Virus record (IMG/VR): IMGVR_UViG_3300027906_000003
Location: 1 to 64,000 of that record
Length of the DNA: 64,000 nt
From: a virus
Strand: one strand, 5' to 3'
The notes beneath the pieces are model-generated. The model was not told the origin of the DNA. It was given only the letters and a program-made list of their open reading frames with translations, and searched no databases. The position numbers were made by a program, and so were the translations under genes. Positions 35,160 to 60,882 of this stretch are shown here, piece after piece. Each line of letters starts with the position of its first letter. Positions within the stretch are counted from its first letter, which is position 1.

Positions 35160-36629
35160 ATGGCAGCAATAATAACAGAGAAGTTTCGTGTTCATAATGC
35201 GAGACAATTCAAAGAAGACTTTGGTGAAGCAGAATCATCAACATATGTTTTCATAGGTCGTTCATCATCATGGGCAGACGATAATAGTCCACCAGCACCT
35301 GCAAACGGAGTCGGTGAAGAAATACAAGCATGGGAAGACATGTTGGCACTTAAAAAAGTTGACCCAGCAGATGTATCTCATGGTATAACAAGATATAACT
35401 GGACATCAGGAACAAAATACGATGAGTATTCACATGATTACAGTGCAACAAATAAAACACCTGCAACAAACAAAGATAGTTTGTATGAAGGAAGATTTTA
35501 TGTGATGACTGATGAATATCATGTCTACAAATGTATCAGAACAGGAAGAGATAGTTCAGGTGCAGTTGTAAACTCAGTAAACAAACCAACAGGAACAGAT
35601 GTATCAGTTCTATTTGAAGGAACACCAGCTGATGAGGGTGGAACAGACGGAATGCCTTATCTTTGGAAGTATATGTATACTATATCTGCTTCAGATACAA
35701 TCAAGTTCGTGACTAACGACTTTATACCTGTTAAGACATTAGGTGCAAAGACAGGTATTTTTGGAACTCATACAAACGGTGGTCTGAACTCCTCAGCAGA
35801 CAACGATAGTTCACAACAATATCAAGTAGAGACAAATGCTGTCGATGGTTCAATCTTACATATTAAAGTTGACAATCCAGGTTCTGGATATACAGATGGA
35901 ACTTACACGAATGTCGATATCGATGGAGATGGTTCATCTGGAAAATGCACTGTTAAGGTAGTTTCAGGTGGTCTAAGAGAAATCGATGTGACTAACCGAG
36001 GAAGTTTATATAAACAAGCATCTATTGATGTTGCGGGTATATCAAGCATCGGTGGTGGTTCAGGTGGAGTTGCAACTCCAGTAATATCACCTCAGTTCGG
36101 ACATGGTGCTGACCCTGTAGAAGAATTAGGTGGAAACTACATCATCGTTAATTCAAGATTAGAATTCAATGAGGGTGCAGGAGATTTCCCTGTAGATAAC
36201 GATTTCAGACGAATTGGTCTATGTCAAGACCCATTTGCATTTGGAACAACAAACAGAGCAACTGCAGCTACTATGTTTGCTTATGGCAAAATGACTTTAT
36301 CTGCAATTGGTTCACTTGGTGTAGATGACTTAATACATAGTGCATCATCTGATGGTTCTGGTGTGGCTGCGGCTAGAGTAGTTTCAATTTCAGGAACAGT
36401 AGTATCATTTTTACCAATCGCAAACAGTGCGGGTGGTTATGTAGACTTCGTAGCAGGAAATACAGTTCACAAAATAGGAGTTGGTTCAATCGGAACTATA
36501 AACTCTTCAAGTATGGTGAATCCAGAGGTTGCAAAACATACAGGTAGAATGATGTATATTGAGAATAGAGGTGCGGTAACTCGTGCAAGTGACCAGATTG
36601 AAGATATCAAACTGATTATCGAAATGTAA
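35160..36629 (+). CDS. gp8: baseplate wedge gp8
   Basis: MAAIITEKFR, VYKCI, YLWKYMY, YIENR..VTR..DQIEDIK. Confidence 0.92.
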   Translation: MAAIITEKFRVHNARQFKEDFGEAESSTYVFIGRSSSWADDNSPPAPANGVGEEIQAWEDMLALKKVDPADVSHGITRYNWTSGTKYDEYSHDYSATNKTPATNKDSLYEGRFYVMTDEYHVYKCIRTGRDSSGAVVNSVNKPTGTDVSVLFEGTPADEGGTDGMPYLWKYMYTISASDTIKFVTNDFIPVKTLGAKTGIFGTHTNGGLNSSADNDSSQQYQVETNAVDGSILHIKVDNPGSGYTDGTYTNVDIDGDGSSGKCTVKVVSGGLREIDVTNRGSLYKQASIDVAGISSIGGGSGGVATPVISPQFGHGADPVEELGGNYIIVNSRLEFNEGAGDFPVDNDFRRIGLCQDPFAFGTTNRATAATMFAYGKMTLSAIGSLGVDDLIHSASSDGSGVAAARVVSISGTVVSFLPIANSAGGYVDFVAGNTVHKIGVGSIGTINSSSMVNPEVAKHTGRMMYIENRGAVTRASDQIEDIKLIIEM

Positions 36630-36675: not shown

Positions 36676-39600
36676 ATGGCAGAGAAAACTGATTTAAATA
36701 TATCACCCTATTACGATGACTATTCAGAAGATAAGAACTTTCAAAAAGTTCTTTATCGTGCTGGTAGACCACTTCAAGCAAGAGAATTAACTCAGTCTCA
36801 ATCAATTTTACAAAATCAAATTGAAAGATTTGGTGACCACTTCTTTAAAGAGGGTTCTATAGTATCTGGTGCTCAATGTGATGTTGACATGGACTTATAC
36901 TATGTTAAAGTAAAGTCTGCTAATCCAAATTCCTCAGGTGATGCAAGTATCGAAACATTCAGAACTGCATCACATGGTTTACATATTCAAGGTAAAACAT
37001 CAGGTGTTGTTGCAAAGATTATAACATCAACTGCTGAAACATCAGATGATAAAGCGACACTATTTGTTTACTACTTACAACAAGGAACAAATACAACCAA
37101 TGATTTTGCATTCACACCAAATGAAGAATTACAACTAGTCACATTAGATGGTTCTGGTAATGTATCAGATATTGGCACAAACAACAATGACTTTCAGGTA
37201 GAAGTTGAAACAGAAACACCAAATGGTCGTGCTTCTATAGCAAACATCTCAGAGGGTGTTGTCTTTAGTAGAGGTTTCTTCCTAAAAGTTGACAAACAAG
37301 AACTCATACTTGAAAAGTATTCAGGTAAACCAAGTTATAAAGTTGGTCTCTCTATTGTAGAATCGTTTGTTGATTCTGCAGAAGATAACACACTAGAAGA
37401 CAATGCAACAGGAACATCAAACGAAAACGCTGCAGGTGCAGATAGATTTAAAGTTGCATTAACCCTAACAAAACAATCATTAACTACCTCAGATGATACA
37501 AACTTCATCGAACTAACAAGAGTTAATCAAGGTGTTATTGAACTACATGTCAATAGACCTGTTTACAATGAAATAGAAAATACACTTGCAAGAAGAACAT
37601 TCGATGCAAATGGTGATTTTGTTGTAAAACAATTCACTCAATCAATGAGAGAACATTTAGATGATACTACTAACAGAGGATTCTATACTGCAACAAATGG
37701 TGGTAAAGAAGACCAATTTGTTATGCAAGTATCTCCAGGTAAAGCATATGTTAAAGGTTACGAAGTAGAGAAGATAGGAACTTCTATAATACCTATAAAC
37801 AAAGCAAGGTCTACTGCAACTTTAACATCAACAAATACTCCTATTAGATTAGGAAACAGATTAAGAGTCACAAAATTACATTCATTACCAGAATTTGGTA
37901 ATGAATCAGGAACAGATGCACAAGACCCATTTCAAACTTGTGAATTATTTCCTAGTGCGGTTGCATCACAAGGTGTAAAGAATAGTGAAAACCCAATTGG
38001 TTATGCAAGAGTAAGAGATGTAGTTCATCATTCAGGTGTAGATTCATCTAATGTCTATGGTGATGATGCACAATTTGATTTATCTATGTTTGACATTAAG
38101 ATGTTTACACAATTGTCTTTCAGTAGTGTAGCTAGTAATACTGAGGTCAAAGTTGGAGATAAAATTACAGAAACAAATAGTGGAGTTCCGACAGGTGCTT
38201 CAGGTATTGTAGCCGTTTGTGACAGCACAAATAATGTCTACATGTTGCACGATGTTATTGGACAATTTACAGTAGGATATGGATTATCTTCCTCAGGACA
38301 AACTGCCCACACTAAATCAAATGCGGCGGGAATAACAGCAGTTAGAAATTATAACATAGATAGAGTTCGTTCTATATATCAAGAACCTTTGGCTACATCT
38401 AGTAGAGAAGAGTTCACTGCAAATGTTATAACAAACTCAGAATTTATATTAACAGGAACAGTTCAATTTACAGCTAGTTCAACTGCATTAACAGGATTTG
38501 GAACTGCATTTACAAGAGAACTAAAAGAAGGAGATGTTGTTTACAATCCTTCAGGTTCAGGTCAAGAAAGAATTGTTGCCTCAGTCACAGATAATACAAC
38601 TGCTGTTCTTACAGCAAATTCAACAGCTGCTTTCCAAGGAAATGTCACAAGACGAAGAGCTGCTTTAATTGACCAAGACCAATCTGCAAGTATATTCAGT
38701 TGGCCTAGAGATTGGGTTAAAGACCATACACCAGACCAAGTAAAAGTAAGAAGACAAAAAGTTGTGACAGTCACTTCAAATTCTTTCACTCTTAATGTTG
38801 GTTCTAGTGAGTCGTTTGATTCAAATCTTCCTACTACTGATGATTTAACGATTGCAGTTATTGAAGCTGGTTCAGGTTCTTCTGCAAAAGCAGTTGGTGA
38901 CTTATTGAATGTAGAAGATTACACTAAAACAGCAGGCACAGGAACATTATCAATTGGTGGTTTTCATTCAGACGATAACGATGCAGTATTAAAAGTCACA
39001 TATACAGTTGACATTAATACACCTGTTAACAGAGATAAAACATTACACAAAAACAGATGTCTGAAAGTAGGAACTGCTTCAGGTAATAATGGTTTCTATG
39101 GAACTAATTACAACGATAAAGAAATATCACTTGGTGTTTCAGATGTATTTAAAGTAAGAGGTATATATGAAGGAGTTGATAATACTCCTCTAACACCAAG
39201 TGCAACATTTACAATCACATCAGGAGCATTTACAAACCATGAAGTAATCATTGGTCAAACATCAGACGCAAGGGCAGTATTAGTCACAAATAATGGTAAT
39301 GCAGCTACAAGTTATTTCTATTATACAACACCAGAAAGATTTATAGATACTGAGGTTATTACTGGTAAAGATTCAAGTGCAACTGCAACACTAACAAATG
39401 TTAATGCAGGTTCTCCAGACATCACAAGTAGATACTTCTTTGATGATGGTCAAAGAGATGGTATGTATGACTTAGCAAAATTAACACTTAAATCTGGTGA
39501 ACCAGTTCCACAAGGACCGATTCTAATAGTATATGATTACTTTACAGCATCAAACGCTGGTGATTTCTATGATGTAAATTCATACAGTAATATTGACTAT

Positions 39601-42600
39601 AAAGATATACCTGTTTACTCTCCAAGTAGAGTTGACTTAGGTGGTTTAGAACCAGACGGAACATTCGAACTATCAGATTGTGCAGACTTTAGACCAAATT
39701 GTGGTCAAGTATTTGCATCTTCAACATTTAAAACCGATTTACAACATAATGTTGCAAGTCCATTAGACTTATCTAATACAACTAATGGTGCAAGGTATTC
39801 TCCATTTTCATATGATGAGGGTCGTTCATTTGCATCTAGTAGAACAAACATAACATCTGCTAATGCAAGTGCTGTAGACTCACCTGTTAATGGTTCAAAT
39901 ATGACTGGTGCTATTGACTTCTATGTTGGAAGAATAGATAAAGTGTTTATGCACAAAACAGGTCAGTTCATGGTATCAACAGGTATTCCTTCGTTGACAC
40001 CAACCAAACCAAAAGCAATCGATGATGCAATCGAAATGTTTGAACTGAGAATACCACCTTACACGAACAATCTAAAAGATATTAGAGTAAGGTCACATGA
40101 CCATAGACGATATACTATGAAAGATATCGGTAAGATTAATAATAGGGTCACAAACTTAGAAAGAATTACTGCATTATCTTTATTAGAAAAAGACACACAA
40201 ACAAAACAAATTTTAGATGCAGACGGATTTGATAGATTCAAATCAGGTTTCTTAGTAGATAACTTTAGAGGTCATAGAGTTGGTGATGTAAATCATCCAG
40301 ACTATAATGTTTCTATTGATGCAAAATTAGGTGCAATGAGACCTAAATCATATTCACAATTCTTTGATTTAGATTTAGATACTACTGCATCATCAAACTA
40401 TACTAAGACTGGTGATTTAATTACATTACCATTCTCAGAATTATCATATGTAAACCAAGATAAAGCATCAAGACAATTGAATGTTAATCCATATCATGTC
40501 TTTGCATTCGATGGTCAACTTAAATTAACACCTGGTACCGATATATGGCAAGACACAGAACAATTACCAGAAGTAAGAGTTAATAGAGAAGGAAACTTTG
40601 ATGCTGTTATGGCTGAAAACGATAATGCCTTAGGAACAGTTTGGAATAACTGGCAAACAACATGGGCAGGAGAACCAACTGCAGTAAGTTCAGAAGTTCA
40701 AGCAACTTCAAATGGTTCTTGGTCAGGAGACCCAGCACAAGGTGGTGAATGGGTTGCAGGTTTACAAGTCACAAGAGAAATTACAGAAACACCTGAAACA
40801 CAAACAAGAACAGGTGTGACAACAAGTGTTGTTGAAGACTTTGTAGAAACAAGAAACGATAGAGTCGTATCAGTATCAATGATACCATTCTGTAGAGCAA
40901 GAACAATTGAAATAGATGCAACGAACTTAAAACCAGGTTCAAATCACTATGTCTTCTTTGATAACATCGATGTAAATAAATTTGTAAGACCTTATAATGC
41001 AAGTTATTCACAAGACGGTGGAACTACAGTATCATCAGGAGTTAAGACAGACGGAAACGGAAGATGTCGTGCATATTTTGAATTGCCTAATAGTAATGCA
41101 CAAAGATTCCCTTCAGGAATGAGGGAGATGATGATTACAACATCTGCATTCAATCTATCTAATCCAGCTTCAAGTGCTAGTGTTATATATCAAGCACAAG
41201 GACTATTACAATCTTCTCAAACAGAAATAGTATCAACAAGAAATGGTCGAGTAATTACAGAAAGAACAAGAGGAGAAAGACAATTTACAAGAAGAGGTGA
41301 GAATATAAACTCAACTGAGTGGGATTCACAAGCACCAGAAATACCAGTAAATGATGTTGTCGTGACTCCACCAAGTTCACCGATAGTTCCACCTCCAGTA
41401 GAACCACCAATTCCTGTGCCAGCACCAATACAACCTCCACAATTGGAGTCATTCCCTGCTACTGGTGTAGACAGAAGATTCATAACCAGATTAGATGGTG
41501 GTGGAAGAGGTGGTTGGAAAGACCCATTAGCACAATCATTCATGTGTGAACCACAAGGTGGAATGTTCTTATCATCAATCGATTTATACTTTGCAACTAA
41601 GTCAGATAACTTACCTGTATCTGTAGAAATCAGAAATATGGTAAACGGATATCCAGGTCAAACAGTATTACCATTCTCAGTAGTCACTAAGAATCCAGGA
41701 GATGTTAATACATCATCAGATGGTTCAGTGGTAACAACATTCACATTCGAATCACCAGTTTATATAGAAGAGGGTGCAGAAATGTGTTTCGTTGTTCTAT
41801 CTAACTCAAATGATTACGAAGTATTCATTTCAAGAATGGGTGAATCAGATATAATTTCTGGTGAGACAATATCAGGACAACCTTATGCAGGTTCTTTATT
41901 CTTATCTCAGAATGCGTCAACATGGACTGCAGAACAAACAGATGATATGAAGTTCAACATGAAGATATGTTCATTCGATACAACAAAAACACCTGATTTA
42001 AGATTTAATAATAGTGCATTACCAACACACACATTACAAAACAATCCAGTAGAAGCATTCTCAGGCAAAAACTTTGTTAAAGTTTATAACTACTCACATG
42101 GAATGTATACACCAAATTCAAGTGTGACACTTGCAGGATTAACAGGAGACAAACAAGGTTCTGCCTTAACTGTTGATACATTTACTACATCAGGAAGTCC
42201 AACTGCATCTTCAACATTTGCTGATAAAGCACAAAGTTCAACATCTGGTCAAGGTTCAGGTATGGTAGTAGAACTTACTACAGATGCTTCTAGTCCACCT
42301 GTAGTCACAGGTGTTAAGATAAAAGACCCAGGTCAAGGACATGTAGTTGGAGATGTTATTACTATCGAGAATTTTGAATCAACACATGATTGCACATTTA
42401 GAATTGCCTCAATCGGAGAGACAATTGGTGGTATGCCAGTAGATGCTATAAACGCATCATTCACTGCCATTAAAGAAATTGGTATTGATTCATTCTGCGT
42501 GACACCAGATGTATCATCATATCACTTCGTATCAAATTATACTGCACCTGCATCAACAGTAAGTGGTGGTTCAGTTGCAACATCAACAAGAAACTATTAC

Positions 42601-43383
42601 TTTGATACACTGCATACTATGATACCTAACATTCAATTTAAAAACACAAGAATATATTCAAGTGTTTATATGTCACCAATGCAATCACCAGAAGGATTTG
42701 TTGGTGGTGGTGCAAACTATGTTAAGAAAACAGTCACAGAATTTATAACACTAAATGATAATAGTCATTTTAGTAATTCACATGTTGTTGCATCTCCAGT
42801 AAATGAATCTGCTTACAATGGTAACACAAAATCATTTACTGCTCAGTTGCAATTACAATCATTTAATTCTAACTTATCACCTGTAGTCGATGTAGGAACA
42901 TTGGGTGCTATTGGTATTATGAATAGATTGAACAATATTGATAGTGCAACAAGTAAGAAAATAGATACAACTACAAATTCATTACCAGAAGGAACAGTAT
43001 ATGTTGCATCAACTGAACCTGAGGGTGATAATAATGCAATGGTATATTGCACAAGAAAAGTTAATTTAAAAACACCTGCAACTGCATTAAGAGTCACAGC
43101 AGATTTATTTAAACCTGCAACAGCAGATATCAAGTTTATGTATAAGATTCTAAAGAATGATGAATCTACTCCTTGGGACGATTTGGGTTGGGAATTCTTC
43201 AACACTGATGGTTCACCAGATGCAACACTTGAATCAGATGCAAGAAACTTTAAAGAATATGATTATACTGCAGAAGGACTTGCAGAGTTTTCATCATTTG
43301 CAATTAAGATTGTAGGACAAGGAACAAATACATGTGAAATACCGTTAGTAGCGGCTTTAAGATGTATTGCATTAGCAACATAA
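36676..43383 (+). CDS. large VrlC-like (DUF4815-type) virion structural protein
   Basis: 2235 aa; NISPYYDD, QARELTQ.QSILQ.QIE, ARRTFD..GDF, RFKSGFLVDNF, DPLAQSF. Confidence 0.85.
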   Translation: MAEKTDLNISPYYDDYSEDKNFQKVLYRAGRPLQARELTQSQSILQNQIERFGDHFFKEGSIVSGAQCDVDMDLYYVKVKSANPNSSGDASIETFRTASHGLHIQGKTSGVVAKIITSTAETSDDKATLFVYYLQQGTNTTNDFAFTPNEELQLVTLDGSGNVSDIGTNNNDFQVEVETETPNGRASIANISEGVVFSRGFFLKVDKQELILEKYSGKPSYKVGLSIVESFVDSAEDNTLEDNATGTSNENAAGADRFKVALTLTKQSLTTSDDTNFIELTRVNQGVIELHVNRPVYNEIENTLARRTFDANGDFVVKQFTQSMREHLDDTTNRGFYTATNGGKEDQFVMQVSPGKAYVKGYEVEKIGTSIIPINKARSTATLTSTNTPIRLGNRLRVTKLHSLPEFGNESGTDAQDPFQTCELFPSAVASQGVKNSENPIGYARVRDVVHHSGVDSSNVYGDDAQFDLSMFDIKMFTQLSFSSVASNTEVKVGDKITETNSGVPTGASGIVAVCDSTNNVYMLHDVIGQFTVGYGLSSSGQTAHTKSNAAGITAVRNYNIDRVRSIYQEPLATSSREEFTANVITNSEFILTGTVQFTASSTALTGFGTAFTRELKEGDVVYNPSGSGQERIVASVTDNTTAVLTANSTAAFQGNVTRRRAALIDQDQSASIFSWPRDWVKDHTPDQVKVRRQKVVTVTSNSFTLNVGSSESFDSNLPTTDDLTIAVIEAGSGSSAKAVGDLLNVEDYTKTAGTGTLSIGGFHSDDNDAVLKVTYTVDINTPVNRDKTLHKNRCLKVGTASGNNGFYGTNYNDKEISLGVSDVFKVRGIYEGVDNTPLTPSATFTITSGAFTNHEVIIGQTSDARAVLVTNNGNAATSYFYYTTPERFIDTEVITGKDSSATATLTNVNAGSPDITSRYFFDDGQRDGMYDLAKLTLKSGEPVPQGPILIVYDYFTASNAGDFYDVNSYSNIDYKDIPVYSPSRVDLGGLEPDGTFELSDCADFRPNCGQVFASSTFKTDLQHNVASPLDLSNTTNGARYSPFSYDEGRSFASSRTNITSANASAVDSPVNGSNMTGAIDFYVGRIDKVFMHKTGQFMVSTGIPSLTPTKPKAIDDAIEMFELRIPPYTNNLKDIRVRSHDHRRYTMKDIGKINNRVTNLERITALSLLEKDTQTKQILDADGFDRFKSGFLVDNFRGHRVGDVNHPDYNVSIDAKLGAMRPKSYSQFFDLDLDTTASSNYTKTGDLITLPFSELSYVNQDKASRQLNVNPYHVFAFDGQLKLTPGTDIWQDTEQLPEVRVNREGNFDAVMAENDNALGTVWNNWQTTWAGEPTAVSSEVQATSNGSWSGDPAQGGEWVAGLQVTREITETPETQTRTGVTTSVVEDFVETRNDRVVSVSMIPFCRARTIEIDATNLKPGSNHYVFFDNIDVNKFVRPYNASYSQDGGTTVSSGVKTDGNGRCRAYFELPNSNAQRFPSGMREMMITTSAFNLSNPASSASVIYQAQGLLQSSQTEIVSTRNGRVITERTRGERQFTRRGENINSTEWDSQAPEIPVNDVVVTPPSSPIVPPPVEPPIPVPAPIQPPQLESFPATGVDRRFITRLDGGGRGGWKDPLAQSFMCEPQGGMFLSSIDLYFATKSDNLPVSVEIRNMVNGYPGQTVLPFSVVTKNPGDVNTSSDGSVVTTFTFESPVYIEEGAEMCFVVLSNSNDYEVFISRMGESDIISGETISGQPYAGSLFLSQNASTWTAEQTDDMKFNMKICSFDTTKTPDLRFNNSALPTHTLQNNPVEAFSGKNFVKVYNYSHGMYTPNSSVTLAGLTGDKQGSALTVDTFTTSGSPTASSTFADKAQSSTSGQGSGMVVELTTDASSPPVVTGVKIKDPGQGHVVGDVITIENFESTHDCTFRIASIGETIGGMPVDAINASFTAIKEIGIDSFCVTPDVSSYHFVSNYTAPASTVSGGSVATSTRNYYFDTLHTMIPNIQFKNTRIYSSVYMSPMQSPEGFVGGGANYVKKTVTEFITLNDNSHFSNSHVVASPVNESAYNGNTKSFTAQLQLQSFNSNLSPVVDVGTLGAIGIMNRLNNIDSATSKKIDTTTNSLPEGTVYVASTEPEGDNNAMVYCTRKVNLKTPATALRVTADLFKPATADIKFMYKILKNDESTPWDDLGWEFFNTDGSPDATLESDARNFKEYDYTAEGLAEFSSFAIKIVGQGTNTCEIPLVAALRCIALAT

Positions 43384-43387
43384 TATT

Positions 43388-43600
43388 ATGGAAGAGTATG
43401 CACAAGTTGAAGGACATTCTAATCTTTTAAGAGATGAAGAATCTTCTGCAATTGTAAATACAGACATTGAACAATGGAAACTTGCAAAACAAAGAAAATT
43501 GCGTTTTCAAAACCAAGCGAAAGAGATAAATAGTTTAAAGAGTGAAGTTGGTGAAATTAAAAACCTACTTAACGATATATTAGGAAAGTTAAATGGCTAA
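43388..43600 (+). CDS. small coiled-coil protein following VrlC
   Basis: VEGHSNLLRD..S.AIVN...EI..LK.EV.EIK.LL. Confidence 0.75.
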   Translation: MEEYAQVEGHSNLLRDEESSAIVNTDIEQWKLAKQRKLRFQNQAKEINSLKSEVGEIKNLLNDILGKLNG

Positions 43601-45071
43601 AACCGTAGATAATTACAGCACAATAAACGAATTCAGAGAGAGATATAATGAACTTGCCACAGATGTAGGTGAGGTTTCAGGATTAAGACCTGCGTTAGGA
43701 GAAAATCTTGTTGATGCCGTTAACGCAGTAGAAGATAAAGCATTCTATTTTGGAAAGTATAGATATGTTGCAACTGCAGGACAACAAACATTCACAGGTG
43801 CAGATGCAAATGGAAACACTCTTAAATATAAAGGAAATAGAGTTCAAGTATTTAAGAATGGTTCGTTATTAGAAGAACAAACTGATTGGCAGGTTGGTGG
43901 ACTTGCAGGTGCTTTCTATTATGACATACAATTGATATCGGCGGCAAGTGCTAATGATTTAATACAAATCTATGCTTACACAGGTTCTTTTGAAGGAACT
44001 GCTACATCAACTGCAATACTTTCATTCTTTACAGAAACATTACAGAACACAATCTATAACACAAATTCAAATGGTGTTATACTTCAAGGAGATAATTCAT
44101 CTCCTACAACAACCTTACAAGGTGGATATACTTTACAACTTGCAGGTAAAACTTATGCAGAAGATGACCTAACACTTGCAACAGGTAAACTATTAACTGC
44201 ACCTACTATGACTGATGGCACTTTATCAATCGATAATGGTAACATAACAGCTGCGGTCAATGGAACATTCTCAGCACAAGTTCAAGCAGAACACTTAAAA
44301 TCAACAGATGATTTAGAAGTAGCCGAAGATGCAACAATTGGTGGTGACTTAGGAGTCACTGGAACTGCAACAGTAGGAACTTTGTCATCAGGTGGTATAA
44401 CAGGAACAACTGCAAGTTTTACAGGAAATGTAGACTTAGGAAGTGATGCAAATGATACAGTATCAATTCTTGGTGTTGTAGATACAAATATAATGCCTAA
44501 TTCAGATAATACTAGAACATTAGGTTCTTCTACAAAGAGATTTCAGAGTTTACATGCAACAACTATTACTGCAACAACATTAAATGGTGAACTAGTAGGT
44601 AATGTAAAAGGTGATATCCTTAAAGATGACGGAACCAAAATTTTAGAAAACTCAACAGGTGCGTTGACTGGTACCGTTTCTAGTGTTTCAAATCATGCAG
44701 CGTCAGGATTATCAGATATTAATTATACATCATCACCAGCTGCTGGTCAAGTCTTAGCATGGGATGCCTCAAACAATTATTGGGAACCTGTTAACCCTAC
44801 AAATACAACAGACTCAGTATCAGAGGGTTCAAACAATTATTACTTTACAGATGATAGGGTCAATGCAATCATTAATGCTAATGCAGGTTTAGCCAAATCA
44901 TATGCTACCAACACAGGAAATTCTTTGGATGGTGACATAAATATTAGTGTTAACACCGCAGAAGGAGTCAAAATTGATGGTGATAATGTGGTGATGGACA
45001 AAACAATAGTAAGTTCAGCTCCTTCTGGAGTTGGGTCGACATCATCAGGTCACTTATGGTTTGTAGTATAA
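43593..45071 (+). CDS. tail fibre / whisker-like structural protein
   Basis: T..EFR..YN N-terminus, ATAGQQTF, beta-repeats, EGSNNYYFT; C-terminal SSAPS...GHLWFVV. Confidence 0.7.
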   Translation: MAKTVDNYSTINEFRERYNELATDVGEVSGLRPALGENLVDAVNAVEDKAFYFGKYRYVATAGQQTFTGADANGNTLKYKGNRVQVFKNGSLLEEQTDWQVGGLAGAFYYDIQLISAASANDLIQIYAYTGSFEGTATSTAILSFFTETLQNTIYNTNSNGVILQGDNSSPTTTLQGGYTLQLAGKTYAEDDLTLATGKLLTAPTMTDGTLSIDNGNITAAVNGTFSAQVQAEHLKSTDDLEVAEDATIGGDLGVTGTATVGTLSSGGITGTTASFTGNVDLGSDANDTVSILGVVDTNIMPNSDNTRTLGSSTKRFQSLHATTITATTLNGELVGNVKGDILKDDGTKILENSTGALTGTVSSVSNHAASGLSDINYTSSPAAGQVLAWDASNNYWEPVNPTNTTDSVSEGSNNYYFTDDRVNAIINANAGLAKSYATNTGNSLDGDINISVNTAEGVKIDGDNVVMDKTIVSSAPSGVGSTSSGHLWFVV

Positions 45072-45074
45072 ATT

Positions 45075-46469
45075 ATGTCAGAGAAAATTTATGTAAATAC
45101 TGGTTCGACCTTTCAACAACCATTTAATGATAGGTCACCTAAGAATGCTCAGCAACCTTATATAGCTAATGCTCAGACTCCCTATATAGCTAATTCACAA
45201 ACACCCTTTACATATTCAAATAGACAACCTGCAAAGTATCAGAATCCAACTGATGCTCAGCAACCTTATATAGCTAATGCACAACAGTCGTATCCATATA
45301 TTGCTAATGCAAGACAACCTTACATAGCTAACGCACAACAACCTTATCCATATCAGGCAAATAGTCAGAATCCTTATATTGCGAATGCAAGGCAACCTGC
45401 GAAGTATCAACATCCGACATCTTCTCAGACTCCTTACATAGCTAATGCACAGACACCGTATCCTGCTAATGCAAGACAACCTAGTGATTATCAAACACCT
45501 TATATTGCAAATTATCAAACAGCGTATCCTGCAAATGCGAGACAACCTGTAGATGCTCAACAACCTAGTAATAGTCAAACACCATATCCTGCAAATGCTA
45601 GGCAACCTGCAAAATATAGAAACCCATTTACATATAATGCGAGGACTCCAGCATCTTCACAAACTCCTGTAACCTATGATGTGTGGGGTGGGGGAAATGC
45701 TCAATCAACATCACAATTAGAAACCACAACTGATGTGTCAGCACCTATGGCACCCTTTTCACAAACGCCTACTTTTAATTACCAGACTGTAGGTCAACCA
45801 ACATCAATTCATTGGGGTCCAGGTTCAACACATATAAAAAATAGTCCAAATTCATCATATGCTCCAACAACTGCACCTATGATTTGGAGTACCCAGCAAT
45901 ATAACACTTATAATTACAGTTTCGGTTCTTGTTGGGCTCAGTTCTTTATTGGTTATGAATCTAGTTCAGGCAAAGTTTACTACGGTTATGGTGCGGGTAA
46001 TTCTCAATTCGGAGGCACAAGTGTTGGCACCTCTGGTAATAGAGTATATTTACCTTTAACTGAATTAAGTAATAATAATGTTATTGATAGTTCTTGGTCA
46101 ATATCAGTCAAATATACAGTTCAATCACAAAGTATAGTTCAAGGTGGTACATCTTCTCAACATCCAGCTAGTCCGAGTTATGGTACAGGTTTAGCTGCTG
46201 GAACATATGTAAACATATGGGATGGTTCTTCTGTTCAAAGTAGTGGCATTGAAACATTCATGTGGGAGGCGGTATCATCATCTAACCCAGGAAATGGAGA
46301 TGCAAGGGTTTCTGCAAGTGGTGTAGTATTTACAGTTAAGGCACATAAGACTGGTCAAACATCATACTATACACATTATATTGTAGCACAACATGGAGCT
46401 GGTACCAGCTCACCTTTTGGTGAAATATATTTGAGGTCACTCTATGGTAATAACCATGCACCAGTATAA
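45075..46469 (+). CDS. QPY-repeat filament protein A with C-terminal globular domain
   Basis: 25 units of x(Q/R)xP.. (6/8/10 aa), mostly PYIAN, followed by about 270 aa of Ser/Gly/aromatic-rich sequence. Confidence 0.8.
   Translation: MSEKIYVNTGSTFQQPFNDRSPKNAQQPYIANAQTPYIANSQTPFTYSNRQPAKYQNPTDAQQPYIANAQQSYPYIANARQPYIANAQQPYPYQANSQNPYIANARQPAKYQHPTSSQTPYIANAQTPYPANARQPSDYQTPYIANYQTAYPANARQPVDAQQPSNSQTPYPANARQPAKYRNPFTYNARTPASSQTPVTYDVWGGGNAQSTSQLETTTDVSAPMAPFSQTPTFNYQTVGQPTSIHWGPGSTHIKNSPNSSYAPTTAPMIWSTQQYNTYNYSFGSCWAQFFIGYESSSGKVYYGYGAGNSQFGGTSVGTSGNRVYLPLTELSNNNVIDSSWSISVKYTVQSQSIVQGGTSSQHPASPSYGTGLAAGTYVNIWDGSSVQSSGIETFMWEAVSSSNPGNGDARVSASGVVFTVKAHKTGQTSYYTHYIVAQHGAGTSSPFGEIYLRSLYGNNHAPV
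45111..45656 (+). repeat. coding repeat array A (182 aa)
   Basis: Unit lengths 6,6,8,8,8,6,6,8,10,8,10,8,6,6,8,8,6,8,8,6,6,8,6,8,6. Confidence 0.85.
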
Positions 46470-46483
46470 GGAGATGAGAAGAT

Positions 46484-47200
46484 ATGCCTACAGTTAGTCA
46501 ACCAGTCATAATTCAGCAACCTTATATTGCAAGTGGTCAATCGCCGGTCGATTATAGAGTTCCGTTTACATATCAGGCAAGACAACCTGGAACATATAGA
46601 CACCCCTTTACATATCAAGTTCCGTTTACATATCAGGCAAGACAACCTGGAACATATGATGCAAGGCAACCTGCAAAGTATCAACACCCATTTATATATC
46701 AGGCACGACAGCCTTCTACATATCAGGCAAGACAACCTGCTATATACAGACATCCGGCAGATTATCAAACACCATTTACATATGCTCGTAGACAACCGGC
46801 AACATATGCAAGACAAGGTCAAACTCCGTTTACATATCAAGCAAGAACACCTTTCACATATGATAGACAAGGTCAAACACCATTTACATATCAGGCAAGA
46901 AGTCCGTTTACATACAGAAATCCAACAGACTATCAGACACCTTATATTGCAGATGCAAGACAACCTGGAACATATTCTAATAGACAACCATCCACTTATC
47001 AGAATAGACAACCATTCACATATCAACTTTCGGTTCCAAGCACAAGACCAATAGGTCCTTTGGCAAAAGCAAAACAAGTTTGGGTAAATGATAACGGAAC
47101 TTTAAAAAAGGCAAGTAGTGTATATGTAAATGATGGTGGAACGGCTAAAAAGATACATCAAACACAACCTACAGCACAATTAACAGAACCTAATACCTAG
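46484..47200 (+). CDS. QPY-repeat filament protein B (mirror partner of A)
   Basis: PFTY/PGTY units; C-terminal VWVNDNG and VYVNDGG motifs; AGGAG RBS. Confidence 0.8.
   Translation: MPTVSQPVIIQQPYIASGQSPVDYRVPFTYQARQPGTYRHPFTYQVPFTYQARQPGTYDARQPAKYQHPFIYQARQPSTYQARQPAIYRHPADYQTPFTYARRQPATYARQGQTPFTYQARTPFTYDRQGQTPFTYQARSPFTYRNPTDYQTPYIADARQPGTYSNRQPSTYQNRQPFTYQLSVPSTRPIGPLAKAKQVWVNDNGTLKKASSVYVNDGGTAKKIHQTQPTAQLTEPNT
46493..47038 (+). repeat. coding repeat array B (182 aa)
   Basis: Unit lengths 6,8,6,8,6,6,8,8,6,8,8,6,6,8,10,8,10,8,6,6,8,8,8,6,6, the reverse of A. Confidence 0.85.
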
Positions 47201-47213
47201 AGTTCTTTTTTCG

Positions 47214-47221
47214 TATAAATA
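47214..47221 (+). promoter_or_regulatory. late promoter
   Basis: TATAAATA, 5 nt before the ATG. Confidence 0.75.
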
Positions 47222-47226
47222 GTTAT

Positions 47227-47562
47227 ATGGCTATTATCGCAAACTTATATATTGACCAAGGAACAGACTTCACAATTACAGTTGATGTCACAGACGCTGC
47301 TGGAGATGTTCTTAATTTGACTAACTATTCTGCGCTTGCACAAGTAAGAAAAACATATAGTTCTTCTAGTGCTTCAGTAGCATTTACTACTTCGATATCA
47401 GCAGCTCAAGGTCAAGTCACATTAAGTCTAAATGATACACAAACAAAAGCTTTAGAAGCAGGTCGATATGTTTACGATTTAAATATCACAAGTGCTGGTG
47501 GGATAACTACTAGAGTTGTCGAAGGACAAGCAATAGTGACACCAGGAGTAAGTCGGAGTTAA
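47227..47562 (+). CDS. Ig-like fibre/baseplate adaptor protein
   Basis: NLYIDQGTDF...AQVRK...GRYVYD...RVVEG...VTPGV. Confidence 0.75.
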   Translation: MAIIANLYIDQGTDFTITVDVTDAAGDVLNLTNYSALAQVRKTYSSSSASVAFTTSISAAQGQVTLSLNDTQTKALEAGRYVYDLNITSAGGITTRVVEGQAIVTPGVSRS

Positions 47563-47564
47563 TT

Positions 47565-55104: not shown

Positions 55105-55977
55105 ATGGTAACAGGTAATCAAAAGGTTAAAACCCCAGCTGGTTGGAATTCAACTAGAGGGGCTTGGGTTAAGACTGCATCAGACACATGGACAGATGTT
55201 GACCAGATTTATGTAAAAACTCCAACAGGTTGGAATAATGCGTCAGGTCAGGCAATTACTCAGAACCCTTACCCATATATTGCGAATAATCAAACCCCTT
55301 ATATTGCTAATGCTCAACAGCCTTATCCTTATATTGCGAATAACCAGACTCCATATATTGCAAATGGTCAACAACCATATCCGTATATAGCAAACAGTCA
55401 GACTCCTTATATAGCAAACGGTCAACAACCTTATCCATATCAGGCAAATAGTCAGACTCCTTATATTGCTAACGCACAACAACCGTATCCATATATTGCG
55501 AATAGTCAATCACCATATATTGCTAATGCAAGACAACCTGCAAAATATCAGAATCCTGTAAATGGACAACAACCCTATATTGCAAATGGTCAAAGAAATG
55601 AGTCATACAGAAATCCTGTAAACTATCAGACACCTTATATTGCAAATGCTAGACAACCTGCACATTATAGGAATCCTGTAAGTTATCGTGTGCCTTATAT
55701 TGCAAATGGTCAACAACCATTTACCTATAATGCAAGGTATCCGGCAACATATCCGGCAAATGCTCAGCAACCATTCACCTACAATGCAAGGTATCCTGCA
55801 ACATATCCGGCAAATGCAAGACAACCATTTACATATAATGCAAGATATCCTGCAAATGCAACATATCCTGCAAACGGACAACAACCGTCTACATATCCGT
55901 TCTTGTATAATGCACCTTATCCATTCTTCCAACCATTTGGTGGCGGCGGTGGTTCACCTAACATGAACTTGAAATAA
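55105..55977 (+). CDS. QPY-repeat filament protein C
   Basis: N-terminal head with three VKT...W motifs, then 26+ x(Q/R)xP units. Confidence 0.8.
   Translation: MVTGNQKVKTPAGWNSTRGAWVKTASDTWTDVDQIYVKTPTGWNNASGQAITQNPYPYIANNQTPYIANAQQPYPYIANNQTPYIANGQQPYPYIANSQTPYIANGQQPYPYQANSQTPYIANAQQPYPYIANSQSPYIANARQPAKYQNPVNGQQPYIANGQRNESYRNPVNYQTPYIANARQPAHYRNPVSYRVPYIANGQQPFTYNARYPATYPANAQQPFTYNARYPATYPANARQPFTYNARYPANATYPANGQQPSTYPFLYNAPYPFFQPFGGGGGSPNMNLK
55258..55875 (+). repeat. coding repeat array C (206 aa)
   Basis: Unit lengths (10,8)x5,(6,6,8)x3,8,10,8,10,8,6,6. Confidence 0.88.
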
Positions 55978-56011: not shown

Positions 56012-56749
56012 ATGGCTATAGGATTTTACTGGACAAGTGCTCAAGGTAACACTAGGTCACCGTTTACTTATCAAGTCCCATTTACATATCGTGTGCCTTA
56101 CATTGCAAATGGTAGGTCACCATTTACTTATCAAGCATCATATCGTGTGCCTTATATTGCGAATGGTAGAAGTCCTTTCACATATCAAGCATCATATCGT
56201 GTGCCTTACATTGCAAATGGTAGGTCACCGTTTACATATAATGCAAGGTATCCGGCAGGTTATAGAAATCCGGTAAGTTATCGAGTTCCGTTTACATATT
56301 CAAATAGACAACCTGCATTATATCAGAATCCTGTAATTTATCAAGTTCCGTTTACTTACAACAATAGGTCTCCGTTTACATACAGAAACCCTGTAGATTA
56401 TAGAATACCGTTTACATATCAGTCAAGACAACCAGGCACATATCAGAGAACAGGACAAACTCCATTCACTTATCAGAATAGACAACCTGGAACATATGAA
56501 ACACAAGGTCAAACACCATTTACCTATCAAAACAGGCAACCAGGAACATATGATAGGCAAGGACAGACTCCATTCACTTATCAGAATAGACAACCTGGAA
56601 CATATGCAAGACAAGGTCAGACTCCATTCACTTATCAGAATAGACAACCTGGAACATATGCTACACAAGGTAGAACACCAGTGTCTCGTTGGGATGGAGT
56701 TTTATCACAAACTTGGCCAGCAGCTCCGTTTGATGCTACAAACTCATAA
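56012..56749 (+). CDS. QPY-repeat filament protein D (mirror partner of C)
   Basis: GGAG RBS; YRVPYIAN, GQTPFTYQ and NRQPGTY units. Confidence 0.8.
   Translation: MAIGFYWTSAQGNTRSPFTYQVPFTYRVPYIANGRSPFTYQASYRVPYIANGRSPFTYQASYRVPYIANGRSPFTYNARYPAGYRNPVSYRVPFTYSNRQPALYQNPVIYQVPFTYNNRSPFTYRNPVDYRIPFTYQSRQPGTYQRTGQTPFTYQNRQPGTYETQGQTPFTYQNRQPGTYDRQGQTPFTYQNRQPGTYARQGQTPFTYQNRQPGTYATQGRTPVSRWDGVLSQTWPAAPFDATNS
56051..56668 (+). repeat. coding repeat array D (206 aa)
   Basis: Unit lengths 6,6,8,10,8,10,8,(8,6,6)x3,(8,10)x5, the reverse of C. Confidence 0.88.
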
Positions 56750-56808: not shown

Positions 56809-58461
56809 ATGGCAGCTGATTCTAAATTTATTGACATCAAAACAGTTGAAGATGTTGATAAGATAAAACAAATAGATTTCTCAGATGTAGAGAACGCATT
56901 CTCTATAAGAAACAAAGAAGATTCTGAACACTATCATTTAGGAAGTCTAAATGTGAATCGTGTTATGAAAGATATCAATCCTTGTTATCAAGTTCTTAAA
57001 AAAGTATTCGAAGAGAAAAAAATACCACCTCTTAAATTATTTACATATGGTGATGTAATAAATGATAGAAGAGGAAATACAATGTTGACTATGCACGGTT
57101 TAAAACACCATTCTCTAGTATATAACGCATTCCTACCTTATGGTTATACTTGTGCTCCAACTCCAGAAATGTTTCCAACAGGAACAAATACATCTGTAAT
57201 TAGAACAGAAGAAGACCCAAATGGAGAAAGGTCTATAAATTATTATGCAGTAGAAAAAGATGAAGAAGATAGTCAATCTCAACCACAAAAAACACTTTGG
57301 GATAGTTCTTACTATCACGCTGCGAAAGCACACTGGTTAACTCAAAGTATAATTGAAGATGGTTTATGGGCACCAATACAAGGAATTATTTTAAAAGATA
57401 CTTCATGGATTGATGAAAACAATCCAGATGAAAAGTATAAATTCTATGTTCATCCAGGTTCTGTTCGTTCAGGTGTTATTGAAGAAATGCAAGACCCTAG
57501 TATGATGTGTCATTTCTTTGACCCACATAACAAGGTTCCTGATGTTGAACCAGCAACAGTAGATGAGTTTTTGGATTATTGGAAAGACTTACTTGAAAAA
57601 AGAAATATAGAACAAGACAATCTATCTTTTATTATAACAGGTGGAGTTATAGAGGTAAGCAGTGAGTTTGCAAATGTGTCTGATTTTAGGCCTAAAATAT
57701 ATGAGTTTAATAAGAAAGTTCATAAACTTGCAAAAGGTAAACCTCTAAACATATACATTGGTTATGACTCAACACATAATCAATTAGAAGAATTAACCAA
57801 GTTCTCCATAGAAGACTCAATTAAACAAAGTTTTTCTGCAAATACAAAAACAAATCGATTCATTCCTGAGATAAAAATGCTTGACTATTCTAAGATTCCA
57901 GTGTATAATAGGGAGTATGCAAATCAATCTACTGCGTTTACATACAGTAGATTTTTGATACCTTACTTAGAGAATTATGAAGGATTCAGTATGTTTCTTG
58001 ATGATGATATTCTTTTTGAAGAGAATTTATTACCAATGTTCTACTATCTAAATCCTGATGATGCGGTTGCGTGTATTCAATACCCACAATATAAACACGA
58101 TTCTGTTAAGTTTAATGGTGAAATAAACATAGATTATCCATGTAAGTTGTGGTCTTCATTAATGATATTTAATAATGGACATGAAGACTGTAAGAAACTA
58201 ACACCAGAAGTTGTTAATACATGGACAGGTGCTCAGTTGCATCAGTTCGAATGGACAGATAAATTGAGTAAGATACCTGAACACTATATTTTTACTGAAG
58301 GATATGATAATCCAGAAACCAAATGGGGTTGTTCTGGTTATCATTATACAAGAGGTGGTCCTTGGATAGATAACATGGACACATCTAATATTAAAAGACT
58401 ATCACACTATGAGAAAATAAAGACTCGTAGAGACAACCTAAATAATTTGAAGAGAGGATAA
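56809..58461 (+). CDS. unknown N-terminal domain fused to a GT-A glycosyltransferase
   Basis: C-terminal half IYIGYDS, STAFTYSRFLIPYL, FLDDD (DxD), WSSLMIFN, HYTRGGPW. Confidence 0.78.
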   Translation: MAADSKFIDIKTVEDVDKIKQIDFSDVENAFSIRNKEDSEHYHLGSLNVNRVMKDINPCYQVLKKVFEEKKIPPLKLFTYGDVINDRRGNTMLTMHGLKHHSLVYNAFLPYGYTCAPTPEMFPTGTNTSVIRTEEDPNGERSINYYAVEKDEEDSQSQPQKTLWDSSYYHAAKAHWLTQSIIEDGLWAPIQGIILKDTSWIDENNPDEKYKFYVHPGSVRSGVIEEMQDPSMMCHFFDPHNKVPDVEPATVDEFLDYWKDLLEKRNIEQDNLSFIITGGVIEVSSEFANVSDFRPKIYEFNKKVHKLAKGKPLNIYIGYDSTHNQLEELTKFSIEDSIKQSFSANTKTNRFIPEIKMLDYSKIPVYNREYANQSTAFTYSRFLIPYLENYEGFSMFLDDDILFEENLLPMFYYLNPDDAVACIQYPQYKHDSVKFNGEINIDYPCKLWSSLMIFNNGHEDCKKLTPEVVNTWTGAQLHQFEWTDKLSKIPEHYIFTEGYDNPETKWGCSGYHYTRGGPWIDNMDTSNIKRLSHYEKIKTRRDNLNNLKRG

Positions 58462-58464
58462 ATT

Positions 58465-59046: not shown

Positions 59047-59048
59047 AG

Positions 59049-59792: not shown

Positions 59793-59793
59793 A

Positions 59794-60879: not shown

Positions 60880-60882
60880 ATT

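What the first reader, a model, noticed from the sequence alone, without database searches (positions are those of the whole stretch)
45075..47200. A second mirror pair (A and B) with a different barcode and a distal globular domain
Seen: A = 6,6,8,8,8,6,6,8,10,8,10,8,6,6,8,8,6,8,8,6,6,8,6,8,6 and B = 6,8,6,8,6,6,8,8,6,8,8,6,6,8,10,8,10,8,6,6,8,8,8,6,6, an exact reversal over 25 units (182 aa each; three units lack the Pro). The pattern is aperiodic and differs from that of C/D, so the symmetry occurs twice and is unlikely to be chance. Inference: distinct barcodes would keep A with B and C with D and fix the register. Antiparallel pairing puts A's roughly 270-aa C-terminal domain (candidate adhesin) at the far tip and brings A's N-terminus and B's C-terminus together at the base.
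Basis: partly seen in the sequence, partly recalled or inferred. Interest (0 to 1): 0.92.

Follow-up and report, generated by a model that had tools for sequence, protein, structure and literature searches.

The report
Mirror-coded two-protein phage fibre
Two neighbouring genes of an uncultured marine T4-like phage encode repeat proteins that match unit for unit, in length and in complementary type, when one is read backwards, which points to a long two-chain antiparallel fibre held in register by a sequence code that I could not find described.

Summary
A (45075-46469) and B (46484-47200) each carry 25 Pro-ended units of 6, 8 or 10 residues over 182 aa, and B's order is exactly A's reversed. 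The three Pro-less boundaries carry Pro in orthologues. An exact reversal is 1 of 4.06e8 possible orders, and 0 of 100,000 shuffles reached it.

The rule is general. In 114 sources there are 70 distinct adjacent gene pairs with 54 different barcodes. In 70 of 70 the antiparallel Pro coincidence beats the parallel one, up to 71 coincidences.

Mirrored units are also of opposite type (YIAN-type facing FTY-type) in 741 of 753 8-mers. Orthologues swap types on both chains together. The strongest residue covariation is between positions that face each other if Pro faces Pro. A natural single-gene fusion (L025) carries both arms.

Best reading: an antiparallel, register-locked A:B fibre shaft in the phage's tail-fibre region, with A's variable C-terminal domain at the far end. 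The fold, stoichiometry, binding and any adhesin role are untested, because the structure predictors gave nothing usable. Pfam, PDB, cultured phages and paper searches gave no match.

This scan has already noted the same family on other genomes.

The parts
45075..46469 (+). Gene A, 464 aa: N-terminal cap, 25-unit repeat arm, C-terminal domain
   Evidence: ORF. No Pfam or PHROG family. Orthologues at 57-82% identity.
45075..45122 (+). A aa 1-16, N-terminal cap MSEKIYVNTGSTFQQP with one IYVNTG hairpin-like motif
   Evidence: Conserved in the orthologues of the A/B-position pairs printed, and at the N-terminus of the fused L025.
45123..45668 (+). A repeat arm, aa 17-198: units 6,6,8,8,8,6,6,8,10,8,10,8,6,6,8,8,6,8,8,6,6,8,6,8,6
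   Evidence: pLDDT under 50 as a monomer.
45669..46466 (+). A C-terminal region, aa 199-464; a beta-sandwich is predicted for aa 282-458. This is the far end of the duplex.
   Evidence: AF2 model. Only generic matches. 7 homologues in 5.8e9 proteins. One of 8 unrelated tail families at this position.
46484..47200 (+). Gene B, 238 aa, with a GGAG ribosome-binding site 11 nt upstream
   Evidence: 138 homologues, none named.
46505..47050 (+). B repeat arm, aa 8-189: units 6,8,6,8,6,6,8,8,6,8,8,6,6,8,10,8,10,8,6,6,8,8,8,6,6, which is A reversed
47051..47197 (+). B C-terminal tail, aa 190-238, with two VxVND.G hairpin-like motifs (VWVNDNG, VYVNDGG). This is the base end, next to A's N-terminus.
   Evidence: PHROG 13729 (unknown function) on aa 195-227. 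Conserved in the A/B-position partners printed and at the C-terminus of the fused L025.
55105..55977 (+). Gene C, the first chain of the sister pair, with a different barcode
56012..56749 (+). Gene D, the mirror partner of C
43593..45071 (+). Upstream 492-aa fibre-like protein. Its stop lies 3 nt before A's start. Candidate attachment partner.
   Evidence: Conserved upstream neighbour in 16 of 35 loci. No Pfam or PHROG family. Junction sequence.
47227..47562 (+). Downstream LtfC-like small protein (tail-fibre assembly type)
   Evidence: phrog_3304, E 4.4e-26. Conserved downstream neighbour in 16 of 35 loci.
56809..61599 (+). Cassette after C/D: a protein with a weak GT8-like match (below Pfam's cut-off), two 2OG-Fe(II) oxygenases and two unknown proteins. 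Possible fibre-modifying enzymes.
   Evidence: Pfam. Conserved after the pair in 19 of 35 loci. No chemistry has been shown.

Best explanation
A and B are the two chains of one elongated heteromeric fibre shaft.

- Pairing. The 182-residue arms lie side by side and antiparallel in a single register, so each Pro-ended unit of A faces a unit of B of the same length. 'Small' units (YIANAQQP, VNAQQP, YPYIANSQTP) face 'large' units (FTYQNRQP, FTYRNP, GTYARQGQTP).
- Geometry. All unit lengths are even, so every Pro falls in the same phase of an extended beta-type strand. The odd positions of both chains (Y/F, A/Y, A/N, Q) share one aromatic face. An insertion of two residues in one chain has to be matched in the other.
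- Ends. One end (the base) holds A's N-terminal cap and B's C-terminal tail, which together carry three similar hairpin-like motifs. The other end holds B's N-terminus and A's 266-aa C-terminal domain, an exchangeable distal module.
- Location. The duplex is a virion fibre in the tail-fibre region between the baseplate and neck genes. It probably extends the 492-aa fibre protein encoded just upstream.
- The sister pair C/D is a second such fibre with a different barcode.

Shown: the mirror, the complementarity, the covariation, the natural fusion and the synteny.

Inferred: physical pairing, beta conformation, location in the virion, and which end is base and which is tip. A length of about 60 nm follows if the arm is fully extended. 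Stoichiometry is unknown: one duplex, or three as in a six-stranded needle.
For: 1. Exact mirror of 25 units: 1 of 4.06e8 orders, and 0 of 100,000 shuffles reached it.
2. Parse-free Pro coincidence: 23 antiparallel against 15 parallel, and 13 for the next register.
3. Generality. In 114 sources there are 70 distinct adjacent pairs with 54 distinct barcodes. Antiparallel beats parallel in 70 of 70; for example L098 has 71 coincidences (73 Pro of its second chain lie in the matched span) and L021 has 70 over 516 aa. Two further pairs on MAG contigs behave the same way. In the first 24 pairs the cognate or orthologous partner always scores best.
4. Complementary types. 741 of 753 mirrored 8-mers are small-opposite-large (11 small-small, 1 large-large), and 470 of 559 6-mers. 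For 10-mers, 117 of 120 are complementary, 3 could not be classed and none is like-with-like (redundant set). 0 of 2000 within-pair shuffles reach the observed total. In A/B itself, 12 of 12 8-mers and 2 of 2 10-mers are complementary.
5. Types swap chains. A's FTYSNRQP and FTYNARTP face B's YIADARQP and YIASGQSP.
6. Compensating swaps between orthologues. A129-136, A151-158 and A171-178 change from YPAN-type to FTY-type in L010 and L011, while B70-77, B48-55 and B28-35 change from FTY-type to a small type (Y-I/Q-A; YIAD/YIAN, and YQAS in L010 at B28-35). That is 3 of 3 switches compensated, with no uncompensated 8-mer in the 4 orthologues.
7. Strongest covariation among 281 distinct 8-mer pairs is S3-L5 (z 36.6). 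These are the residues directly opposite if Pro faces Pro, with size compensation (G with F/I/V, R with H, A with N/A/H). S7-L1 and S1-L7 are also high. Four of the five strongest pairs, and six of the top seven, are odd-odd, meaning one face.
8. The natural single-chain fusion L025/L026 (484 aa, on two contigs) has an A-type N-terminus and a B-type C-terminus. It shows 11 Pro coincidences at one register, and all eight 8- and 10-mer pairs that I compared by eye are complementary.
9. The pair is conserved in fixed tail-fibre contexts in 35 of 35 loci: between a DUF4815 giant protein and baseplate wedge on one side and T4-type neck protein on the other.
10. There are 8 unrelated tail families on the C-terminus of the first-gene chain, the end where A carries its 266-aa domain.
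Against: No physical evidence exists. There is no structure, no binding assay and no virion proteomics.

AF2 models the arm of A, and the whole fused L025, as unstructured (pLDDT under 50), so the beta conformation is inferred only from even spacing and odd-odd covariation.

6-mers break the small/large rule in 89 of 559 cases (69 large-large, 20 small-small), including 6 of 11 in A/B. The code is therefore more than binary, or it is looser at 6-mers.

A contains a 13-unit internal palindrome, and C against itself reaches 23 Pro coincidences. Proline spacing alone therefore does not exclude every wrong pairing.

Mutual information is inflated by unit subtypes and by relatedness of the loci.

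The closest cultured relative that I searched whole (Melnitz) lacks the genes, so nothing can be checked on a cultured phage.
Confidence: 0.8

Rival explanations
1. The pairing is the same, but the unit of assembly is a trimer of duplexes (A3B3). This would be a six-stranded antiparallel needle like the tip of T4 gp37, with the aromatic odd face buried on the threefold axis. It is a rival on stoichiometry only.
For: Phage fibres are as a rule trimeric (own knowledge). gp37's D10 domain is made of residues 811-881 and 1010-1026, so that chain runs out and back (passage read in PMC6957217). One face of the duplex is aromatic and would need burying.
Against: There are no HxH metal motifs and no similarity to gp37. 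Each pair supplies exactly three hairpin-like motifs at the base, which would also fit one duplex docking on one trimeric fibre. Stoichiometry was not tested.
Confidence: 0.35
2. The chains pair antiparallel but not as beta strands. For example, they could be polyproline-II-like or another extended conformation, possibly only after hydroxylation or glycosylation by the neighbouring enzymes.
For: Pro occurs every 6-10 residues. A 2OG-Fe(II) oxygenase and GT8-like cassette is conserved beside the C/D-type pair in 19 of 35 loci. The predictors find no regular structure.
Against: PPII bundles have a 3-residue period (own knowledge). Here all unit lengths are even, and covariation links odd with odd positions, as expected for a two-residue beta repeat.
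Confidence: 0.15
3. There is no contact between mirrored units. A and B would join end to end, or bind a common symmetric scaffold, giving a rod that is palindromic in unit lengths.
For: Concatenating A then B gives a palindromic length pattern.
Against: A palindromic rod predicts like facing like, but mirrored units are of opposite type (741 of 753 8-mers) and change together in orthologues. The best covarying residues are those that would touch in a side-by-side duplex. A search of the whole 123,820-base record with protein B as the query matched only the four ORFs A-D (8 matches), so no third repeat gene was seen.
Confidence: 0.03
4. The mirror is a nucleic-acid phenomenon, either an inverted duplication of the A array read on the other strand or an mRNA stem between the two arrays.
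For: The opposite strands of both arrays are open reading frames.
Against: Only 10 inverted repeats of 14-20 nt at 78-93% complementarity occur in 45075-47200, and nothing array-wide. The antisense translations lack the Pro pattern. Both proteins end their units in Q-x-P in the same reading direction.
Confidence: 0.01

Closest known systems
Needle (domains D10-D11) of the T4 long-tail-fibre tip protein gp37
   Same: An elongated antiparallel out-and-back shaft with the receptor-binding part at the far end. D10 is built from residues 811-881 and 1010-1026 of one chain (passage read in PMC6957217). The fused L025 has this same topology. Both lie among the tail-fibre genes of T4-like phages.
   Different: gp37 is one chain forming a homotrimer held by seven iron ions on His residues (same paper). 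The description as six-stranded is recalled from Bartual et al. 2010, which I did not read. A/B has two genes, no HxH motifs, no sequence similarity, Pro-ended units of 6, 8 and 10, and a small/large pairing rule.
Fold-back stalk of streptococcal antigen I/II (SpaP/SspB)
   Same: Two distant repeat regions of complementary type pair antiparallel into a long stalk, with a globular domain at the tip. This is recalled from my own knowledge; no paper was read.
   Different: It is one chain, pairing an alpha-helix with a PPII helix, in a bacterial surface adhesin. There is no Pfam match here, and here both arms are of one Pro-punctuated kind.
Antiparallel coiled-coil arms of SMC/Rad50 and heterospecific coiled coils
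   Same: Two arms or chains whose sequence features, including interruptions, must match in reverse order, and partner choice is coded in repeat positions (own knowledge).
   Different: Those are alpha-helical heptads. Pro every 6-10 residues excludes a coiled coil here.
Collagen-like phage and virus fibres with viral prolyl hydroxylases (e.g. PBCV-1 P4H)
   Same: Pro-rich repeats beside 2OG-Fe(II) oxygenase genes. Chain register is set by sequence.
   Different: There is no Gly-X-Y period. Collagen has parallel chains, whereas here the chains are antiparallel and heteromeric. Hydroxylation has not been shown. The PBCV-1 example is recalled.
Host recognition cluster of pelagimyophages and cyanomyophages (PMC7029224)
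   Same: A hypervariable block of tail-fibre and glycosyltransferase genes lies between VrlC and neck gene gp14 (passages read). A/B and C/D lie between a DUF4815 giant protein and a T4-type neck protein.
   Different: The paper does not use the word proline (0 occurrences) and does not describe these repeat pairs. I did not test whether the DUF4815 protein is VrlC. Supplements were not seen.

Membership tests
T4 gp37-type needle / gp37_C | Sequence similarity to gp37 or its solved needle | tested here: not met
   phmmer of A and B against all PDB chains gave nothing better than E 0.078 (an antibody chain) and 2. No Pfam family for A or B.
T4 gp37-type needle / gp37_C | HxH metal-binding motifs along the shaft | tested here: not met
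   The arm sequences contain single His only, in YQHP and YRHP. There is no HxH.
T4 gp37-type needle / gp37_C | Out-and-back chain path with the tip between the arms | tested here: inconclusive
   This is inferred from the mirrored arms of the fused L025 and from A/B. There is no structure; AF2 gave pLDDT 36.8.
T4 gp37-type needle / gp37_C | Homotrimer | not testable with these tools
   Stoichiometry is unknown.
Collagen-like triple helix | Gly at every third residue | tested here: not met
   Units are 6, 8 or 10 long and end in Pro, with no G-X-Y period. No Pfam Collagen hit.
Coiled-coil fibre (fibritin/wac type) | Heptad repeats compatible with an alpha-helix | tested here: not met
   Pro occurs every 6-10 residues over 182 aa.
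Mirror-coded repeat pair family of uncultured marine T4-like phages (unnamed; defined here) | Adjacent same-strand genes whose Pro spacing matches when one is reversed | tested here: met
   A/B gives 23 antiparallel against 15 parallel. 70 of 70 pairs follow the rule.
Mirror-coded repeat pair family of uncultured marine T4-like phages (unnamed; defined here) | Small-type units opposite large-type units | tested here: met
   A/B: 12 of 12 8-mers and 2 of 2 10-mers, but 5 of 11 6-mers. Family: 741 of 753 8-mers.
Mirror-coded repeat pair family of uncultured marine T4-like phages (unnamed; defined here) | Fixed synteny in the tail-fibre block | tested here: met
   16 of 35 loci share the A/B context and 19 of 35 the C/D context.
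Receptor-binding adhesin (for A aa 199-464) | Fold or sequence match to a known receptor-binding domain | tested here: inconclusive
   The best VIA Z is 4.8, to Ig/FN3-like sandwiches. BFVD hits are uncharacterised proteins. Atlas scores are 0.85 or lower. The model is of modest confidence.

The most novel reading that the evidence does not exclude
These phages use a genuine protein-level pairing code. Two chains recognise each other antiparallel through a small alphabet of complementary Pro-bounded units (small opposite large, with matched 2-residue indels). The order of units addresses each chain to its partner and to one register.

This would allow two or more orthogonal duplex fibres of freely evolvable length (about 100 to more than 500 residues) to form in one virion. 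The same module can be split into two genes or fused into a hairpin. The neighbouring oxygenase and glycosyltransferase cassette, and the C-terminal Hint domains on some chains, may then lock or decorate the duplex covalently.
Probability: 0.55. Interest if true: 0.93.

Novelty: categorically new. Interest (0 to 1): 0.86.

Why it matters
If the two chains really zip together as the sequences imply, this is a natural way of building a long thin protein rod that is not described in the sources I searched. It would be a heteromeric antiparallel duplex whose partner choice, register and length are written in a simple repeat code, with compensatory evolution like that of RNA stems.

It would explain a widespread group of unannotated genes in the host-recognition region of abundant uncultured marine T4-like phages: 173 stretches in IMG/VR match D and 138 protein clusters match B.

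It would give a handle on how these phages vary fibre length and tip modules. It would also offer a programmable protein-pairing scaffold for protein design.

The claim is directly testable with synthetic genes.

Tried and rejected
- Complex prediction on A(1-210) with B(1-238), each with a 4-row alignment, gave no verdict (score 0.00; controls were not run). I count it neither for nor against. A+D could not be tried because the cap is one job.
- AF2 of whole A with 11 rows leaves aa 1-281 under pLDDT 50. AF2 of the fused L025 without an alignment gave mean pLDDT 36.8. Neither gives structural information on the arms.
- Fold searches with the A model found nothing. BFVD returned 2 hits at E <= 0.001, both uncharacterised, with TM-score normalised to the whole 464-residue query 0.16 or lower (0.38 and 0.28 normalised to the targets). 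PDB representatives gave a best Z of 4.8. ESM Atlas gave at most 0.85. No named fold results.
- Pfam found nothing for A, B, C or D. PHROGs found only an unknown-function family on B's tail.
- PDB sequence searches found nothing.
- Cultured phages (INPHARED, tblastn with the low-complexity filter on): A gave no match. B, C and D gave 3, 3 and 6 records. Four of D's six, and all three each for B and C, are Pseudomonas phages whose annotated protein under the match is an unrelated SAASNTG repeat. The two Vibrio phage hits of D were not followed up. megablast of 43500-48000 gave none. Melnitz searched whole gave none. HTVC008M and Mosig were not searched whole.
- Papers. Six peptide motifs in full text gave 0 papers. 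Keyword searches listed 12 papers each, none relevant by title or abstract. PMC7029224 has no occurrence of proline. Subscription journals and supplements were not searched.
- A search for more fused genes with L025 found only itself, on two contigs.
- Inverted DNA repeats: only short chance matches.
- Promoter and terminator scan: promoter-like sites at shuffle level, 26 against a mean of 26.6. Not used.
- My position-3 classifier mislabels 10-mers (YPY...), so the 10-mer row is invalid. I used instead.
- Covariation in 6-mers and 10-mers is odd-odd but does not single out the directly opposite pair.
- Reads.
  - All four runs are contigs, so no depth or strand can be read.
  - Contigs of DNA run X2 (another sample and study than the possible source) cover 45000-45369, 45340-45601, 45603-46245, 46568-46657 and 46628-46893 with 0-1 other letters.
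  - Contigs of RNA-library run X10 cover 45035-45464 with 1-6 other letters, and X24 covers 46835-47045 with 6. An RNA library can hold DNA, so transcription is not shown.
  - Stretches without cover and the listed joints (short sides, repeats, relatives) are not interpreted.
- Genome collection scan: two MAG contigs labelled Verrucomicrobiales and Sphingobacteriales carry mirrored pairs. I take them as phage contigs binned with bacteria, not as host evidence.
Full report
WHAT IS THERE

The window is the first 64 kb of a 123,820-base IMG/VR virus record. It is a T4-like marine myovirus. Its baseplate wedge protein (35160..36629) matches phrog_438 (E 5e-127). It is about 35% identical to those of Methylophilales phage Melnitz and Pelagibacter phages Mosig and HTVC008M.

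Gene order around the finding:
- a 2,235-aa DUF4815 protein (36676..43383)
- a 70-aa protein
- a 492-aa fibre-like protein
- A (45075..46469)
- B (46484..47200)
- an LtfC-like tail-fibre assembly protein (phrog_3304)
- further fibre proteins
- a 689-aa fibre protein
- C (55105..55977)
- D (56012..56749)
- a cassette with a weak GT8-like match (22.3 bits, below Pfam's 24.3-bit cut-off) and 2OG-Fe(II) oxygenases
- a T4-type neck protein (62741..63595)

This is the position that PMC7029224 calls the host recognition cluster, between VrlC and gp14 (passages read). I did not test whether the DUF4815 protein is VrlC. A search of the whole record with protein B as the query matched only the four ORFs A-D.

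THE OBSERVATION

Three boundaries lack Pro in the window (A72, A150, B183), but orthologues have Pro at exactly those columns, so the parse is objective.
- B is A reversed over 25 units and 182 residues.
- For the same set of units there are 405,623,400 orders.
- No shuffle of 100,000 reached the full reversed run; the maximum was 16.
- A has a 13-unit internal palindrome, which explains why a parallel alignment also gives a run of 13.
- A parse-free statistic counts Pro of A at position i and Pro of B at K-i. It gives 23 at the best K, 13 at the next best, and 15 for the best parallel offset.
- C/D gives 26. The cross pairs A x D and C x B give 15 and 13, the level of unrelated pairs.

THE RULE HOLDS IN RELATIVES, WITH DIFFERENT BARCODES

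Two scans of IMG/VR with B and D returned 35 and 78 loci; D's patterns hit 173 stretches.
- In 114 sources I found 70 distinct adjacent pairs with 54 distinct barcodes. The antiparallel count exceeded the parallel one in 70 of 70.
- The arms range from about 100 to 532 residues. L098 has 71 coincidences and L021 has 70; 73 and 72 Pro of the second chain lie within the matched spans.
- Fourteen repeat ORFs had no partner. Twelve of them begin within about 800 bases of a contig end. The other two are the fused gene described below.
- Within the first 24 pairs, the cognate or orthologous partner is always the best match.
- Recurrent modules are (6,6,8)n and (10,8)n.

THE UNITS ARE COMPLEMENTARY, NOT JUST EQUAL IN LENGTH

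Consensus units:

| Length | Small | Large |
|---|---|---|
| 8 | Y-I-A-N-A-Q/R-Q-P | F-T-Y-Q/N-N/A/H-R-Q/S-P |
| 6 | V/A-N-A-Q-x-P | F-T-Y-R-N/V-P |
| 10 | YP + 8-small | large with GQ inserted |

- Over one representative per barcode, 741 of 753 mirrored 8-mers are small opposite large, and 470 of 559 6-mers. No within-pair shuffle of 2000 reaches the total.
- For 10-mers, 117 of 120 are complementary and none is like-with-like (which includes redundant loci).
- Type is not a property of the chain. In A/B, A's two FTY-type 8-mers face B's two YIA-type 8-mers. In C/D and L021 whole blocks swap.
- Between orthologues, three 8-mers of A change from YPAN-type to FTY-type. The three facing units of B change from FTY-type to a small type (YIAD/YIAN, and YQAS in L010 at B28-35). 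No 8-mer is left uncompensated.
- Among 281 distinct small/large 8-mer pairs, the strongest covariation is S3 with L5 (z 36.6). This is the pair directly opposite if Pro faces Pro, and it shows size compensation. The next strongest pairs are mostly odd-odd.
- 6-mers and 10-mers also show mainly odd-odd coupling but are less clean.
- 6-mers include a third kind of pair (AxYxNP facing VxYx[VI]P), which accounts for most of the 'large-large' cases.

A NATURAL FUSION

L025/L026 is the same 484-aa ORF on two contigs, in the A/B position by synteny. It begins like A (MADEIYINTGSTFQQP) and ends like B (...RPIGPLAKVKGVFVNDGG...VHVNDSG...KIH).
- Residues 17-134 and about 323-437 mirror each other, with 11 Pro coincidences at one register.
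- All eight 8- and 10-mer pairs that I compared by eye are complementary.
- About 190 residues lie between the arms.
It ties A's N-terminus and B's C-terminus to the same end.

WHAT IT IS NOT

- It is not a DNA or RNA inverted repeat.
- It is not collagen, a coiled coil or gp37.
- It is not present in cultured phages at tblastn sensitivity.
- I could not find it in print.

MECHANISM

Shown: the mirror, complementarity, covariation, fusion and synteny.

Inferred:
- The arms lie side by side and antiparallel.
- Even unit lengths keep all Pro in one phase of an extended strand. In a two-stranded antiparallel ladder, that is the phase whose NH groups point outward.
- The odd positions form one aromatic face.
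- Matched two-residue indels keep the ladder in register.
- If fully extended, 182 residues span roughly 60 nm.
- Whether one duplex stands alone or three pack into a six-stranded needle like gp37's is open.

The ends:
- The base end carries three similar motifs: IYVNTG in A, and VWVNDNG and VYVNDGG in B. C has three such motifs in its N-terminus.
- The C-terminus of the first-gene chain carries a long tail in 47 of 70 pairs. These tails fall into 8 unrelated families, one of them with Hint domains. For A this is the far end of the duplex.
- A's own tail is predicted to be a beta-sandwich of modest confidence with no informative match. 'Adhesin' therefore remains a guess.

STRUCTURE PREDICTION

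The predictors gave nothing usable for the arms.

INDEPENDENT OCCURRENCE

Contigs from a DNA run of another sample and study cover most of both arrays with 0-1 differences. Contigs of RNA libraries cover parts of A and B, which does not prove transcription.

EARLIER NOTES OF THIS SCAN

Follow-up agents have reported the same family on other genomes at least 15 times, with the same reading. These notes are not independent evidence, and I re-derived each claim that I use. One note led me to PMC7029224.

VERDICT

The antiparallel pairing reading is strongly supported by comparative sequence evidence, but it is physically untested. I did not find the design among known families.

Noticed in passing
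L032:993-2750; L113:1062-2987; 18 of 47 long tails: In many relatives the first-gene chain ends in a Hint/intein-type self-cleaving domain right after a ...FQGG|C junction (Pfam). The window's C ends in ...FFQPFGGGGGSPNMNLK without one. This suggests C-terminal autoprocessing, or covalent ligation, at the far end of some duplexes.
   Followed up: partly
window 56809-61599: A cassette of a protein with a weak GT8-like match (below Pfam's cut-off), two 2OG-Fe(II) oxygenases (PF13640, PF13759) and two unknown proteins follows the C/D-type pair in 19 of 35 loci. These are candidate modifiers of the Pro/Tyr-rich fibres. No chemistry has been shown.
   Followed up: partly
window 45075-45122, 47051-47197, 55105-55269: Each pair carries exactly three similar hairpin-like motifs at the inferred base end: one in A plus two in B, and three in C's N-terminus. 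D ends in a conserved V.RWDG.L.Q.WP tail.
   Followed up: partly
window 45066-45077: The upstream 492-aa gene stops 3 nt before A's ATG, within ...GTATAAATTATG... This resembles the T4 late-promoter box TATAAATA (box recalled from memory) and overlaps the stop codon.
   Followed up: no
L126, L127: Two contigs filed under bacterial MAGs (Verrucomicrobiales, 9.6 kb; Sphingobacteriales, 121 kb) carry mirrored pairs. They are most likely phage contigs binned with bacteria.
   Followed up: partly
L044:2005-3327 (Pseudomonas phage Flu_PA14_4): A 441-aa hypothetical protein made of about 30 tandem SAASNTG(Y/D/N)(Q/R/Y) 9-mers. It is unrelated to the finding but was picked up by tblastn.
   Followed up: no
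window 45216-45605 and 46442-47077, minus strand: Long open frames (129 and 211 aa) lie antisense to the two repeat arrays. They are Cys/Arg/Leu/Ile-rich and are a by-product of the repeat codon pattern rather than genes.
   Followed up: no
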